Source: Heteronotia binoei (lineage: Eukaryota). From it: a DNA stretch of 64,000 nucleotides. This document shows, in pieces, positions 33,701 through 39,700 of the stretch (position 1 is the first letter of the stretch; every line of letters begins with the position of its first letter). The DNA lies in assembly GCF_032191835.1 (NCBI RefSeq), contig NC_083234.1, forward strand, positions 51,212,001 to 51,276,000. Reading direction: 5' to 3'. The position numbers are program-made.

Positions 33701-36700
33701 CGGCGGCGGCAACGAAAGGGGGAGGGGGGGGAAGACAGGGGTTCCTTTAAAGCGGGAGCTCAAGTTCAAGGCCAGCCCGCTGGTGAAAGCACCGAGTCGG
33801 TCTGTGCAGTAGTTCTTCGATCAAGCAAGGCTCCGAGTTAACAGCCGCAACGCGCAGCCGGGCTTGTCCACGCGTAGAAGGAACCACGGAAGGATGCCGA
33901 AGCACCCCCATGAACTTCGCTATAGCAAAAAGGGCCATCGGGGCTGCTGCCTCGAGCGGAGAGCCAAGCTGAACAATAACTCCCTAGATCGGCACTGTTT
34001 GCATTCAGTGGCACCTTTAGTACCAGCTCGGAGTTCGTGGCCTCCCTGAAGGCTGGTCGTGAAGAAAAGTACAACTAAGTTTCTAGCCCCGGCTTTGTAG
34101 AGCAGTTTCTGGGCAATTCAGGCGAGGACTCCGAACAAATCCGCTCCCTCCGCGGCCCTGTGCCACCCAGGGCACAGATCTCAGCAGCGGCGCTGCCACC
34201 CCCGGCCATCCTCTCCCCAGCTGCCTGCGGGGGGACTTTGCAGTCACCCTGAGGCTCCCTCTCCAGCCAAACTCACACCACGATGCTGCTTAAGATCCGC
34301 GAGACCATAGTCGGAGGAGCCGGAGAGACCCTCCCCGGGCTCACTGCTGTGCGTCGCCTCGACGGTTACTGTTGCTGCTGGGCGCTTCCTTTCTTCCCAT
34401 TCGTCGCCCTTTTTCCTGCCCCTCGCAAACAGACCAATAGGAAGCGGCGGCGGAATCCTGCTTGGCTTCGAACAGTTTCTTCTACTGCTCGCGAGGGTTT
34501 TTTGCTCGTCTGAGACGAAGCTGTTGCAAAGGCCGCGGTGGGGCAACTAGCCGCGCGCGGATCTCGCCAGCGCTGGGCGCTCCGCATAAGAAAACGGTGC
34601 TGGCTGGCTGGCGACGCCGAGCAACCCTTGGGCAAAACCGCCCACACAGGGAAGTGGGAAAAAGAGAAATGCTGCTCCATGGATAGGGTTGGATGAGACA
34701 GGGACTGTCTCCGCCCCCCCCCCCCCCCCTTCAAGCGCTATATGTACTTCCCACTACCGGTTTGGCTGGCAAATCCTGCGTCTGCTCGGGCTTTGCCTCA
34801 GTATAACGCGAAGGTAGATCCAGGTGGGTAGCTGCGTTTTCTGAACCAATAGAATAAAGTCAGAGTCCAGTGGCACCTTTAAGACCAGCAAAGTTTTATT
34901 CAAGGGATGAGCTTTCGGAGAGCTTCTTGACGATCCACCGGGAAGCACTGAATCCGTATGCGTGTTTGCTGCGTGGCCGTGGTGCTGGCCTTGCTACCTT
35001 AAGGACGCGCGCGCAGCTGTTTGGCGCATGTTGGAGCTCTACACGCGGCCGAGCCCCTGCAGAAGGGCGCAGGGAGGCTCTTGCCCTCACCAGCCTTGCG
35101 GTGAAATCGAGCTGTGTCGTTTCCCAGCACGAGTCGACCTGTCCCGCGGTCGGTTTTCCCAGGCGTGTTAAGCAGGAGAGTCGTCCTACAGGAAGTCTGC
35201 CAACCCGAATTTAGCTTATTAGTTTCCTGCTTTTTCAAGCTGCTCTGCGAGAGCTGCAGTAAAGTGCAGAATACGCGTTGCTCTCAGCCTCCTTTTCCTC
35301 ATCACAATTATTCCACATATCAGTATTATCCATCTGGCGGAGATCGGGTTGTGGGGGGTTTTTTTTGGGGGGGGGGGGAGGAATATTGCTCCTCAGTTCC
35401 TTCCCGTCTTCTGTTCGACATGGATATTGTCCTTTACATACTTCTTGCTTTTTCCTATGCTACAGTGACTTGCACTGTAACATATGTGTGATATATATTT
35501 GAGGGCTTGCACACTTTGTATCATTTTGGCTCTCCTTAATAATATTGAAAGGTATTACATAGCTTTTGTTTTTGGATTTCCACACACACTCACACTGTGG
35601 TGAGAAGTGCCCTCAAGTGACTTATGGCAACCCAGTAGGGTTTTCAGGGCAAGAGTTGCCATGGCCTGCCTCCACATCACAACTGTGGTAATCTCTGGAC
35701 ATCTCCCATCCAAATACCAGCCAGGGCCAACCCTGCTTAGCTTCCAAGCTCTGATCAGATTGGCCTAGCCAAGCAATATATCATTTGAGCCACCATGTAC
35801 ATATAATTAAACTCATTGCATTCATTTACTTTGCTTACTGAAAATGTATACTGCACCTTCTGCAAAAGAATACAAAACAAAAATCCATTTCAAAACACCA
35901 TAGATCAGCTGCTGCTTTTTTGGTCAATGCCTTCTGACAAAACATCTGTATATTCTATGAAATAAGAAGGAAGGAGCTCTCCAAACTGCCCCAGGATGTA
36001 AGAACAAACCCACACTTCAAAGGGCAGGGAAACTATTAGAGTAGCCAAATGCACCTGGTAGATCTTTGGAGCCACCAGAAGAGATCTGCTGGCTTAGGGT
36101 AGGGAACGTTGGCTCTTCAGATTTTTTTTGCCTACAATTCCCATCAGCCCCAGCCCCAGGCTGATCTAGGTCAGCAAGCAGGTGGGGTTAAGGTGCATTT
36201 GAAAATACTCCACCCTTCTACTGAAGTCAGCTGACAAAAATTAAAATATCTAAACTATGGGTATTAGAATGTAAATTAAAATAATCACAACATCAACAGC
36301 AGTATTCTAAAACTCTGGCCCCATATAAAAGCACCAAAAATGGGGGGAGCACACCACCAATGAAAGCCAGTAAAATTTTAAAAATACAGCAGAGGGTTTT
36401 TTTTTTTGAAATTTAAAAAAAAAATCAGCACTCAGATAATCAGACTGAGTTTGAAGCAACTCCTGCACCAAAGATCTTCCTAAGAAGAATGGTCTTCACC
36501 AGTCGCTGGAATTATGAGGCTGAGCAGGCATCTTGTGACTGGGAAGTTCCAAAGTCTGGAAAGCATGGATCAAAAAAACGCCTCCTGAATTTTCTCCCAA
36601 CCGTAACCCACTCAAGTTAATGTGTCTTAGACCAAGGACAGGTTTCAGGGGGCAGAACTGGGTAGTCAGTATAAGGACTAATAATAGGACGTGCATGAGA

Positions 36701-39700
36701 AATAGGGTAATTTTAGCAAATGTCTACCCTAGTGGAAGGTTTTGAATGTGAGGGCCCTGGAATACATTAACTAAAAAAGTATAGAGCATCAACAAGCATT
36801 TGGTATGTTGCTACTAAGTCATTGGCTGGAGAACTGTGAGAGGTTGTACCCCCTTCCCTCTCTGCAAAAATGCCCCAGAAGGGAAGATCAGCCAGAACCA
36901 GCCATTGGTGAGAGGACTAACAAATGCAGAGAGTGTGCCTTTCCTTTCTAGAAAAAATGTGTTTTCATGCCTGCTAAAACTTACCTCTTTTTGATAAATA
37001 TAGAGGCCCCCTGTCGAATCTCCTTATGTATAGATTTGTGAGCATAGTCTGTGTCCGGAAGAAAGATAATTCTACATGTATGCCTTGCACATGTATGCAT
37101 CATTTGAGCTTCAGAGCCATTCTGGGGCACAGAGAGAGAAGAGATGTTTCCTCTTCTGACAACAGTACTAGAACATTCATCAAGGATGGCCTCTTCATGC
37201 ACTCGAAAGAAATGAATGGCTCCATTTAGGTGCTGTTTACTCAGTTATGCAAGCCCACTTCAAGAGTACCACTCAGCTACATGAGAGGGAAGCCATGTGC
37301 GTAAATGTATACTCCTGAAGGAAAGAAACAACACACCTAGTCACCCTCTGTCCAGTCTCCTTGTCACGTGACTCTGTCTTTGCTGCCAAGGCTTTGGCAC
37401 TGTTTGGATAAACGAGTCAAGCATTAACCCAGTTCATGTAACAAGTCCTCTGGCAGCTTGAAGACTAGTTATAATTGTTCCACATATCCTTAAATTTGCT
37501 CCCTCATCTAGCATAAAGAATAAATGAAAGAGGAACCAGGTATGGTTTGGTAAAGCCACCTAGGATTGGTCAGTGCCTGAACAGGAGAACACTGGGAAGC
37601 CCATCCCCAAAAGAAAGCCAAATTTAAGAACCAGTAGTTGAAATCTTTAAGTGAATTTCAGCCTTAATCTTCCATCTAAAGTACGGGGATTATTTTCCTG
37701 ATTTGACAGGGATGCTAAAGTCTATTGAGATTACGTATTTAAACATTTAGGAAATGCCTTATAAATGCATATTATTTATTAACAATAGATGTTCCTTGAG
37801 ATGGAAAAGCTCAAAGCTACTATCCCAGAAGGCAAAAGGAATTCACAGGATTGTGAAAGGAGGAAGACAGCGGGAGGATCAGAACACGTAAGAGAGTTTG
37901 GATAGCACTTAAAGGTGTATACACACTGCAGAAAGAGGGAGACCCCTGAGGTGGGAAAGTGGTGCACCCTGCTTCCCAAAAGAATCAAGTGGGAAAAATT
38001 ACTTTGTAGAGACTTTTCTAATTAAAAAAACAGGTGGGTAAAGCTGTTGTGAGAAGGATGGAGAGAGAGGGGAACTTTCAACTGGGTGAATTCCCCAGGA
38101 CTGGAATGGTTGCAAGGGTAAGCTGTGATCTGCAGCTGAGGAGCTGTCACCACTGAGGAGCTCACCAGCACAGTCGCCACTGTGTTTAATTATAGTCCAG
38201 ACCCCAGGTTTACACTTGCTGTAGCACAGTTATGTAGTCATTTTAAAACATAAAAAAGATCAGGTCTCTCTTCCCTGCATCTTAGAAACTGGTGGTAGTT
38301 CCCCAGTCCCAAGATTGGAGGGGGGGTAGGGAGTGGCCATGTTCCCAAGTGGAAAACAACCTCAAAGACTGGTGTGACTGAAGACTCCAAGAACATGAGA
38401 TCTCTCACGCAGATGATTTCCATGGGCCCTCCTTATTGGTTCAGCTCACTAGCTCTGCTCTTCCCAAGCAAGCCCCTCCTAGCCATAAGTATTATAAAAA
38501 GGAACACCTTATGGAGCACTTGGGTATGAAAGTACACCACAGCTATGTTGCAACTGCTTCTTCTCACCTTTCTCTTTGGGGGCTCAGGTAAGCTTGATGG
38601 ACTGGGGACATGGGGAGGAATTTCCTGATCAGAGTGAATTCAGATGATCAGTTTCTAGATGACAGCATACTATGAGGAGCATGTGATCGCTTAGCAACTC
38701 TATACTAGGGGTGCCAGGTCTGTGTTGGAAAGTACCTGGAGACTTTGGGGGTGGATCTGAGAGCAGGGTTTGGGATAGGGAGGGGCCTCAGCATGGTACA
38801 ATGCCATAGAGTCCACCCTTCAAAGCAGCCATGTTCTCCAGGGGAGCTGAACCTTGCCAGCTGGAGATCAGTTGTAAAAGCAGATCTCCAGGCCCCACCT
38901 GGAGGCTGGCAACCCTAAAACTGTATCATGTTGCTTTGGGTCATACGTTACCCCAGTGAGAAATCTGGAGGGGAAAGGGATAATCGTAATAACATTCCAC
39001 TCACCGCTTGGCAGAAGAGTCTTTATTTAGCTTTCTTAATTAGGCTGCATTTGACTAGTTTAGTTTTCATTTATTGGCGATCCTAATTGTGATTTTAAAT
39101 TTATATGTATGTATGTGTATAGATAGATAGACACACACACATTGTAAGCCACCATGAATTCTGCAATGTAGAAAGGTGGTTAATAACTGTTTGAAATAAA
39201 CAAAATTGCTGGGCCTCATAAAGGAGACACCTTTTCCAGTCATTGTTATTATCTTAGTAATTCTTATTACAGACCCACTAGTATATCAAGAACAACAAAC
39301 CCACAAGGGGAGGTTATCTCAGGAACCTGGCAGCCTAAATGTCAAGATTGCAGGGAAGGAGGAAAGAGGGTAGGCCAGGTCAAAATAGATGAATGGGAGC
39401 AACTATGTCCTTATATATTTGGTTTTGTTGGGCCGGGATAAAACCAGAGTCATGTCTGAACAGTCAGCCACCCCTGCTCTGTACACTTTATACAGAAGAT
39501 GACATTTGTAAGCCTAGCAAAATGACAGTTGTATGCAGGTAGGGAAAAATGGAAAAAGACTAGTAGACTGCAGGGAATCCTCTCCCTGTTATGTGTTTGT
39601 GTCTACCTGCACAAAAAGGCCAGGCAATGGGCAGATTTTGCTTCTTCCCCTTCAGGGTCCCTAAGTTCAACATTTGAATTTTTTTCTCCACTGAAGTGAA

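What the first reader, a model, noticed from the sequence alone, without database searches (positions are those of the whole stretch)
34308..38545. SFTPB sits where SFTPC sits in mammals: junction of human 8p21.3 and 2p11.2 blocks
Seen: REEP4 (-) and SFTPB (+) are divergent, 4.2 kb apart with no gap, followed by USP39. I see no LGI3 LRR/EPTP exons or SFTPC poly-valine sequence. Known: human 8p21.3 is REEP4-LGI3-SFTPC-BMP1, and 2p11.2 carries USP39-SFTPB. Inference: both hydrophobic surfactant genes may once have been neighbours in one cluster, possibly sharing lung enhancers, and were later split by rearrangement.
Basis: partly seen in the sequence, partly recalled or inferred. Interest (0 to 1): 0.65.

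Follow-up and report, generated by a model that had tools for sequence, protein, structure and literature searches.

The report
Gecko REEP4–SFTPB synteny-block junction
In this gecko chromosome piece the surfactant protein B gene sits head-to-head with REEP4, so two gene blocks that lie on human chromosomes 8 and 2 meet here; this is an ordinary evolutionary breakpoint, with no sign of a combined surfactant gene cluster.

Summary
The window is gecko: every REEP4 exon from exon 2 on, and every SFTPB exon, is 100% identical to the Heteronotia binoei proteins. REEP4 (-) starts at ATG 34308 and SFTPB (+) at ATG 38545. The 4,236 bases between them contain no N. USP39 (-) follows tail-to-tail. An FHIP-family gene and NUDT18 lie left of REEP4, as in human 8p21.3. 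A Pfam scan of 328 open frames from the spacer, SFTPB intron 1 and two other spacers found no LRR, EPTP, BRICHOS or SP-C match. There is no poly-valine run.

Two human blocks do meet here, but strictly SFTPB occupies LGI3's place, not SFTPC's. An 8p–2p association is already published as ancestral to mammals (PMC9550189). Nothing here shows SFTPB and SFTPC were ever neighbours or shared enhancers. The spacer carries two different promoters, a CpG island and a CpG-poor TATA promoter. Outgroup gene order and the gecko position of SFTPC could not be tested. It is ordinary, of low to moderate interest.

The parts
34277..34308 (-). REEP4 coding exon 1 (ATG at 34308-34306, 32 nt, MVSRILSSIVV, GT donor)
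   Evidence: Sequence read and donor checked. It equals the N-terminus of Gekko kuhli REEP4 (11 of 11) and matches Paroedura picta at 10 of 11.
25703..31399 (-). REEP4 exons 2-8 with stop: 31399-31327, 30759-30683, 29247-29127, 28649-28536, 27730-27607, 26158-25968, 25762-25706, TAG 25705-25703
   Evidence: tblastn of H. binoei REEP4 gives 100% identity inside the exons. GT-AG junctions were placed by coordinate arithmetic. Pfam TB2_DP1_HVA22, E 1.3e-13. Named REEP4 hits.
33450..35400 (.). CpG island over REEP4 exon 1, the presumed REEP4 promoter
   Evidence: 300-bp windows have GC 0.51-0.62 and CpG observed/expected 0.54-1.11. From about 35400 to 36449, the last window computed, the ratio is 0-0.15.
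34309..38544 (.). Spacer between the two start codons (4,236 bp); the breakpoint relative to human gene order
   Evidence: No N. Only 149 of 4,236 bp recur elsewhere in the window. One weak 17-bp tandem repeat. None of 98 open frames has a meaningful Pfam match; best E is 0.015. No Rfam family.
38493..38498 (+). TATAAA box 52 bp upstream of the SFTPB ATG, in CpG-poor sequence
   Evidence: Its promoter role is inferred, not shown.
38545..38587 (+). SFTPB coding exon 1 (signal peptide MLQLLLLTFLFGGS, phase 1, GTAAG donor)
   Evidence: (14 of 14 identical to H. binoei SFTPB).
43734..57020 (+). SFTPB exons 2-11: 43734-43867, 45387-45455, 47461-47586, 47953-48102, 48536-48625, 49880-50063, 53973-54121, 54889-54969, 55989-56096, 56985-57017, plus stop
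   Evidence: Pfam SapA (E 1.2e-11 and 1.5e-08) and SapB_2. PDB hits to surfactant protein B and saposins. Named SFTPB hits.
58657..64000 (-). USP39, 3' part, running off the window; its stop is 1,636 bp from the SFTPB stop (convergent)
   Evidence: PDB match to U4/U6.U5 tri-snRNP-associated protein 2 / USP39, E 9e-35. Pfam UCH. Last exons and stop located.
20493..22166 (-). NUDT18
   Evidence: PDB match to NUDT18, E 4.8e-38. Open frames listed.
9000..14510 (+). FHIP-family gene (RAI16-like domain exons); FHIP2B by its position, the name was not tested
   Evidence: Pfam RAI16-like on 4 of 6 frames tried, best E 2.6e-11.

Best explanation
This is a correctly read, gap-free stretch of a gecko chromosome, either Heteronotia binoei or a nearly identical genome. 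A block with human 8p21.3 gene order (FHIP-family gene, NUDT18, REEP4) directly abuts the SFTPB-USP39 pair of the human 2p11.2 type. The 4.2-kb REEP4-SFTPB spacer is therefore an evolutionary breakpoint relative to mammals, not a gene cluster.

It works as two independent promoters pointing apart. A 2-kb CpG island drives REEP4. A CpG-poor TATA promoter next to the signal-peptide exon drives SFTPB. That promoter function is inferred.

The most likely history is that both blocks lay on one small ancestral amniote chromosome and that rearrangement within it changed REEP4's neighbour between lineages. A later fission in mammals then put the two blocks on different chromosomes. Which order is ancestral stays open. 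SFTPC and LGI3 are presumably elsewhere in this genome.
For: **Shown.**
- Complete exon-intron models of both genes with GT-AG junctions and 100% exon identity to H. binoei proteins.
- Orthologue names and the identities of USP39 and NUDT18.
- No N in the spacer, and the spacer is almost entirely unique sequence.
- A CpG island on the REEP4 side and CpG-poor sequence with a TATA box on the SFTPB side.
- No LRR, EPTP, BRICHOS, SP_C-Propep or JmjC match in 98 + 108 + 122 open frames from the spacer, SFTPB intron 1 and the NUDT18-REEP4 and SFTPB-USP39 spacers.
- REEP4 and SFTPB sit on contigs of identical length in three independently assembled geckos: 84,150,879 in H. binoei, 72,683,480 in Eublepharis macularius and 53,498,516 in Paroedura picta.

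**From print.**
- The HSA8p plus part-of-HSA2pq association is ancestral to all mammals, and one mammalian ancestor chromosome covers HSA 2p-4-6p-8p-20 and GGA 3pq-4q-20-22-Z (PMC9550189 passages and Table 1).
- Human order NUDT18-HR-REEP4-LGI3-SFTPC-BMP1 with coordinates (PMC13163323).
- SFTPB and USP39 listed side by side in cattle (PMC12075139).

**Inferred.** Promoter function and the rearrangement history.
Against: - No genome other than this window could be inspected, so the position of LGI3, SFTPC and BMP1 in this gecko is unknown, and so is the gene order in other squamates, turtles, birds, amphibians and fishes.
- The window reaches only 34 kb left of the REEP4 start and 25 kb right of the SFTPB start, so SFTPC could lie just outside.
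- Contiguity rests on the assembly itself. The H. binoei proteins were predicted from what is probably this same assembly, so they are not independent evidence.
- Exons shorter than 30 codons, such as 24-residue LRR exons, would escape the Pfam scan.
- PMC9550189 does not say in the passages seen which part of HSA2p travels with 8p.
Confidence: 0.72

Rival explanations
1. One reading: SFTPB and SFTPC were once adjacent members of one surfactant gene cluster with shared lung enhancers, and rearrangement later split them. The gecko junction would be a relic of that cluster.
For: SFTPB lies within one gene of the place that SFTPC holds beside REEP4 in humans. Both are transcribed away from REEP4; the SFTPC strand is recalled. 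8p and part of 2p shared a chromosome in the mammalian ancestor (PMC9550189).
Against: In the gecko both neighbours of SFTPB are other genes, REEP4 and USP39. No SFTPC or LGI3 remnant turned up in 328 open frames and there is no poly-valine run. An ancestor with SFTPB next to SFTPC would differ from both the gecko and the human order, so it needs extra rearrangements. The genes are unrelated in family and unequal in age. SFTPB has its own proximal TATA promoter. No paper in the library holds sftpb, sftpc and synteny together.
Confidence: 0.07
2. Assembly misjoin: the REEP4 side and the SFTPB side were wrongly joined somewhere between 34.3 and 38.5 kb.
For: None found. It remains possible only because no reads or contact maps could be examined.
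Against: There is no N run in or near the spacer. Only 149 of 4,236 bp recur elsewhere in the window, and only one weak 17-bp tandem repeat is present, so nothing there would favour a false join. Composition changes smoothly from CpG island to CpG-poor sequence. REEP4 and SFTPB share a chromosome-scale contig in two other gecko assemblies.
Confidence: 0.03
3. The adjacency is a young, gecko-only rearrangement. LGI3-SFTPC was moved away, or SFTPB-USP39 moved in, within Gekkota, and the junction has no deeper meaning.
For: The only species for which any linkage could be shown are three geckos. HR, which lies between NUDT18 and REEP4 in humans, is also missing here, which hints at local reshuffling or loss.
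Against: No rearrangement scar was seen: the spacer has almost no repeats. This is a sub-case of the best explanation rather than a contradiction of it. Polarity was simply not testable.
Confidence: 0.3

Closest known systems
Human 8p21.3 segment FHIP2B - NUDT18 - HR - REEP4 - LGI3 - SFTPC - BMP1 (coordinates in PMC13163323, passages read)
   Same: An FHIP-family gene, NUDT18 and REEP4 are in the same order here. The orientation of NUDT18 and REEP4 matches what I recall for human. The spacer upstream of REEP4 is short in both.
   Different: HR is absent between NUDT18 and REEP4. Upstream of REEP4 comes SFTPB rather than LGI3-SFTPC-BMP1.
Mammalian 2p11.2-type segment ... ST3GAL5 - SFTPB - USP39 - ... 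(cattle BTA11 list in PMC12075139; human positions recalled)
   Same: SFTPB and USP39 are immediate neighbours, tail to tail, 1,636 bp between their stops.
   Different: The 5' neighbour of SFTPB is REEP4, not the ST3GAL5/ATOH8/REEP1 side listed for cattle. Gecko SFTPB also ends in a second SapA domain, which I recall human proSP-B lacks.
Published ancestral association of HSA8p with part of HSA2pq; mammalian ancestor chromosome 3 = HSA 2p-4-6p-8p-20 = GGA 3pq-4q-20-22-Z (PMC9550189)
   Same: 8p-type and 2p-type genes are on one chromosome, as in this gecko window.
   Different: That work is at chromosome-segment scale and concerns mammals. It names no genes in the passages seen, and it does not place the junction at REEP4|SFTPB. 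Its SI tables could not be opened.

Membership tests
SFTPB (pulmonary surfactant-associated protein B, saposin-like) | N-terminal SapA domain followed by saposin B-type domains, including the mature SP-B region | tested here: met
   Tested exon by exon with Pfam: SapA E 1.2e-11 on exon 2, and SapB_2 E 7.6e-4 and 9e-4 on exons 4 and 7, just under the gathering score as expected for half-domains. PDB hits to SP-B and saposins.
SFTPB (pulmonary surfactant-associated protein B, saposin-like) | Closest relatives are annotated SFTPB orthologues over the full exon set | tested here: met
   20 of 26 hits are named SFTPB. All 11 exons are 100% identical to H. binoei SFTPB. The reading frame closes at 389 codons with GT-AG at all 10 junctions.
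SFTPB (pulmonary surfactant-associated protein B, saposin-like) | Expression in lung epithelium and processing to an ~80-residue hydrophobic peptide | not testable with these tools
   No expression data for this species were available.
REEP4 (TB2/DP1/HVA22 family) | TB2/DP1/HVA22 domain, and orthology to REEP4 rather than REEP1-3 | tested here: met
   Pfam PF03134, E 1.3e-13. 6 of 6 hits to the paralogue-specific last large exon are named REEP4. 20 of 22 named tetrapod rows are REEP4 and none is REEP1-3; 9 shark rows carry mixed '1-like' or '4-like' names. NUDT18 flanks it as in human.
USP39 | UCH-fold domain with closest solved relative USP39/Sad1 | tested here: met
   PDB match at E 9e-35 to USP39 residues 362-429. 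Pfam UCH on two exons.
Evolutionary breakpoint / junction of two conserved synteny blocks | Orthologues of genes from two different reference chromosomes lie contiguous, each side keeping its internal order | tested here: met
   The left side follows the 8p21.3 order. The right side is the SFTPB-USP39 pair. The human 2p11.2 location is recalled.
Evolutionary breakpoint / junction of two conserved synteny blocks | Contiguity confirmed independently of the assembly (reads, Hi-C, or a second species with the same adjacency) | tested here: inconclusive
   Only same-chromosome placement in three geckos could be inferred, from equal contig lengths. The accession look-up that might have shown adjacency could not be made.
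Co-regulated surfactant gene cluster (SFTPB with SFTPC) | SFTPC (BRICHOS domain, SP-C propeptide, poly-valine helix) present beside SFTPB | tested here: not met
   None of 328 open frames matches BRICHOS or SP_C-Propep at E <= 1. There is no VVVVV run, and the only two runs of 9 or more V/I/L residues are at 39239 and 55183, in introns.
Co-regulated surfactant gene cluster (SFTPB with SFTPC) | Shared lung enhancer acting on both genes | not testable with these tools
   There are no chromatin or expression data. The NKX2-1-type CAAG core is not enriched upstream of SFTPB: 5 per 200 bp, a count reached by 9.9% of windows.
Bidirectional promoter pair | Divergent starts less than about 1 kb apart sharing one promoter region | tested here: not met
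   The ATGs are 4,236 bp apart. The CpG island ends near 35400, and the SFTPB side is CpG-poor with a TATA box.

The most novel reading that the evidence does not exclude
The REEP4-SFTPB adjacency is not a gecko oddity but the old vertebrate arrangement. On this reading SFTPB originally belonged to the 8p21-type paralogy region created by the two genome duplications. That would mirror the linkage of its paralogue prosaposin with REEP3 on human 10q; the map positions are recalled and were not tested. SFTPC later arose only a few genes away in the lungfish-tetrapod ancestor. The two hydrophobic surfactant genes would then have started life closely linked on one microchromosome, and only the mammalian lineage tore them apart.
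Probability: 0.2. Interest if true: 0.5.

Novelty: new member of a known kind. Interest (0 to 1): 0.25.

Why it matters
It pins one gecko-versus-mammal breakpoint between the 8p21.3-type and 2p11.2-type blocks to a 4.2-kb, repeat-poor spacer. It also shows that a complete SFTPB with its own promoter sits at the edge of that breakpoint. This gives a cheap, precise test of which order is ancestral, by checking the same spacer in other annotated reptile, bird, amphibian and fish genomes. It also allows a test of whether SFTPB regulation is compact enough to survive a change of neighbour. It does not change what is known about surfactant genes. All genes are ordinary orthologues, the 8p-2p association is already in print, and the gene order can be read from a public annotated assembly.

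Tried and rejected
- **Six-frame Pfam scan of 33.9-43.8 kb as three long translations.** The tool rejected it because of stop codons. I replaced it with lists of stop-to-stop frames of 30 aa or more (32 or more for the third set), passed as alignment containers A1-A3.
- **Accession numbers of REEP4 and SFTPB in several species as a proxy for adjacency.** The look-up could not be made.
- **Contig-length matching beyond geckos.** The third homology search brought REEP4 from Sceloporus and Candoia, but neither species is in the SFTPB list. It yielded nothing for non-gecko squamates, turtles or birds.
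- **NKX2-1-type CAAG cores upstream of SFTPB.** Not enriched. A cluster of 4 CCCAAG/CTTGGG in 217 bp, out of 45 in the window, was noticed only after looking, so it is not counted as evidence.
- **CTCF-like motif (consensus recalled).** One match in the window, at 11832, against 1.25 expected by chance; none in the spacer.
- **Rfam.** Nothing in the spacer.
- **Literature.** 0 papers hold sftpb + sftpc + synteny. The only paper holding REEP4 + SFTPB is a pig association study. The only paper holding SFTPB + USP39 + chicken is a cattle study. Searches for GGA22/HSA8/HSA2 and for chicken chromosome 22 gave nothing usable. The PSAPL1/SFTPB search gave nothing on paralogy. PMC6191699, PMC12820338 and the held part of PMC11835228 had no relevant passage.
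- **Closed resources.** Supplementary files of PMC9550189 (SI Table S7, datasets) and the extended-data figures of the bioRxiv paper could not be seen. They may state which part of HSA2p goes with 8p and show the sftpb paralogy.

Full report
**What the window is.** It is vertebrate DNA. CpG is strongly depleted except in a few islands, and there is a single N run at 3712-3888. Exon-sized queries hit gecko proteins best. When the Heteronotia binoei REEP4 and SFTPB proteins returned by those searches were aligned locally to the window, every SFTPB exon, and every REEP4 exon from exon 2 on, matched at 100% inside the exon bounds. I therefore take the window for H. binoei or a nearly identical genome. 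It is not human, and no human contig was met. A preprint names a chromosome-level, RefSeq-annotated assembly of this species (10.64898/2026.08.10.744031, passages).

**How the searches were run.** All database searches used single exons or single open frames.

**Checking the observation: REEP4.** On the minus strand an ATG at 34308 opens a 32-nt exon encoding MVSRILSSIVV, followed by a GT donor. The same 11 residues begin Gekko kuhli REEP4, and 10 of 11 begin Paroedura picta REEP4. The exon joins in frame to exon 2 at 31399, which has an AG acceptor. Seven further exons run down to a TAG at 25705-25703, all with GT-AG junctions.

The gene is REEP4 rather than a paralogue, on three grounds:
- 6 of 6 hits to the paralogue-specific large exon are named REEP4.
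- 20 of 22 named tetrapod rows in a wider search are REEP4 and none is REEP1-3. The 9 shark rows carry mixed automatic names and 24 rows were unnamed and unused.
- NUDT18 and an FHIP-family gene flank it, as in the human 8p21.3 table of PMC13163323 (passages).

**Checking the observation: SFTPB and USP39.** On the plus strand a TATAAA at 38493 is followed 52 bp later by an ATG at 38545. That ATG opens a 43-nt signal-peptide exon ending in GTAAG. Ten more exons follow to a stop at 57018-57020, each junction being the unique GT-AG solution that keeps the frame. Exons carry SapA and SapB signatures, and 20 of 26 relatives are named SFTPB. USP39 lies on the minus strand from its stop at 58657 to beyond the window end.

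The genes are divergent and 4,236 bp apart with no N between them.

**What is in the spacer.** About 1.1 kb next to REEP4 belongs to a CpG island spanning roughly 33450-35400. Beyond it, over the part measured (to 36449), the sequence is CpG-poor. Only 149 of 4,236 bp recur elsewhere in the window. There is one weak tandem repeat and no Rfam family. The 98 stop-to-stop frames of 30 aa or more give no Pfam match better than E 0.015, which is what 98 trials would give by chance. None matches LRR, EPTP, BRICHOS or the SP-C propeptide.

The same holds for 108 frames from SFTPB intron 1 and for 122 frames from the NUDT18-REEP4 and SFTPB-USP39 spacers. No poly-valine run exists in any frame. As a positive control, the same scan detects REEP, SapA, SapB and UCH signals on single exons. 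Very short exons such as 24-residue LRR units could still escape.

**How it most likely works.** The spacer holds two promoters of different type pointing apart: a CpG island for the broadly used REEP4, and a TATA promoter in CpG-poor DNA for SFTPB. This is inferred from sequence only. At 4.2 kb it is not a bidirectional promoter. I found no statistical sign of clustered NKX2-1-type cores and no CTCF-like site. Neither result says much.

**The interpretation.** Two human blocks do meet here. Strictly, though, SFTPB takes the place of LGI3. The human table lists REEP4 at 22,138,020-22,141,951, LGI3 at 22,146,830-22,157,084, SFTPC at 22,156,913-22,164,479, and then BMP1.

That 8p-type and 2p-type material once shared a chromosome is already in print. 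PMC9550189 calls the association of HSA8p with part of HSA2pq ancestral to all mammals. Its Table 1 equates one mammalian ancestor chromosome with HSA 2p-4-6p-8p-20 and chicken 3pq-4q-20-22-Z. So common chromosomal ancestry of the two blocks is plausible and not new.

The stronger claim, that SFTPB and SFTPC were neighbours in one cluster with shared enhancers, has no support here:
- In the gecko both sides of SFTPB are taken by REEP4 and USP39.
- An ancestor with SFTPB beside SFTPC would differ from both known orders.
- The genes are of unrelated families and different ages. sftpb is called a 2R product present in shark, and Sftpc is dated to the lungfish-tetrapod ancestor (bioRxiv 10.1101/2024.07.14.603411 passages).

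**Contiguity.** Nothing suggests a misjoin. There is no gap, almost no repeat and a smooth change of composition. REEP4 and SFTPB lie on contigs of identical length in H. binoei, Eublepharis macularius and Paroedura picta. This shows the same chromosome in three assemblies, not adjacency.

**What stayed unchecked.**
- The place of LGI3, SFTPC and BMP1 in this genome.
- Gene order in any outgroup.
- Reads or Hi-C.
- Expression.

The tools hold no vertebrate genomes.

**Comparison and verdict.** The closest known things are the human 8p21.3 and mammalian 2p11.2-type segments and the published 8p-2p ancestral association. The junction is a further, gene-level instance of an evolutionary breakpoint between conserved blocks. 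The boldest reading still open is that REEP4-SFTPB is the ancient arrangement, that SFTPB belonged to the 8p21-type paralogy region, and that SFTPC arose nearby. I give that about 0.2. It rests on recalled map positions of PSAP and REEP3 and was not tested. Overall this is a correct observation of an ordinary feature, with a speculative interpretation that the present evidence does not carry.

Noticed in passing
window 31400-31791 (-), directly upstream of REEP4 exon 2: The frame of exon 2 stays open upstream through what is intron 1 of the canonical form. NCBI's H. binoei REEP4 model (383 aa) starts at an ATG at 31791 in this extension, not at exon 1 at 34308. A shorter version of the extension ([11 protein letters not shown]...[14 protein letters not shown] near 31515) resembles the N-termini of Eublepharis isoform X1 and Candoia aspera isoform X2. 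It may be a conserved alternative first exon in squamates.
   Followed up: partly
window 55989-56096 and 56985-57017 (+), SFTPB exons 10-11: Gecko SFTPB ends in a second, C-terminal SapA domain (Pfam E 1.5e-08 on exon 10). Of 25 named reptile SFTPB hits, 17 show two SapA-type cysteine motifs, 2 only the C-terminal one, 3 only the N-terminal one and 3 none; several of these are partial. Human proSP-B, as I recall it, has no C-terminal SapA, so this looks like a prosaposin-like feature kept in reptiles.
   Followed up: partly
window 22167-25702, between NUDT18 and REEP4: In the human table HR, a 19-kb gene, lies between NUDT18 and REEP4. Here the gap is only 3.5 kb, and the frames scanned from it gave no meaningful Pfam match. 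HR is absent from this position. Whether it is elsewhere or lost was not checked.
   Followed up: partly
window 49250-49322 (+), SFTPB intron 6: A tRNA-like element: Rfam tRNA at 41 bits, and ARAGORN calls it tRNA-Thr with anticodon GGT. Given its intronic place and unusual anticodon it is more likely a tRNA-derived SINE or pseudogene than a working tRNA gene.
   Followed up: no
window 51393-54031 (-), SFTPB intron 7: A LINE remnant with long open frames. The reverse transcriptase frame scores Pfam RVT_1 E 2.2e-31. An upstream open frame on the same strand, not scanned (I would guess endonuclease), runs to 54031, into the coordinates of SFTPB exon 8 on the other strand. Where the element truly ends was not determined.
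   Followed up: no
window 34843-34916, 32647-32698, 48927-49000; also 35686-35760 and 45951-46025: Short interspersed repeat copies (81-94% identical) are the only parts of the spacer that recur in the window. Other SINE-like frames recur in SFTPB introns.
   Followed up: no
window 3712-3888: The only N run (177 bases), far from the finding. It was left as it is.
   Followed up: no
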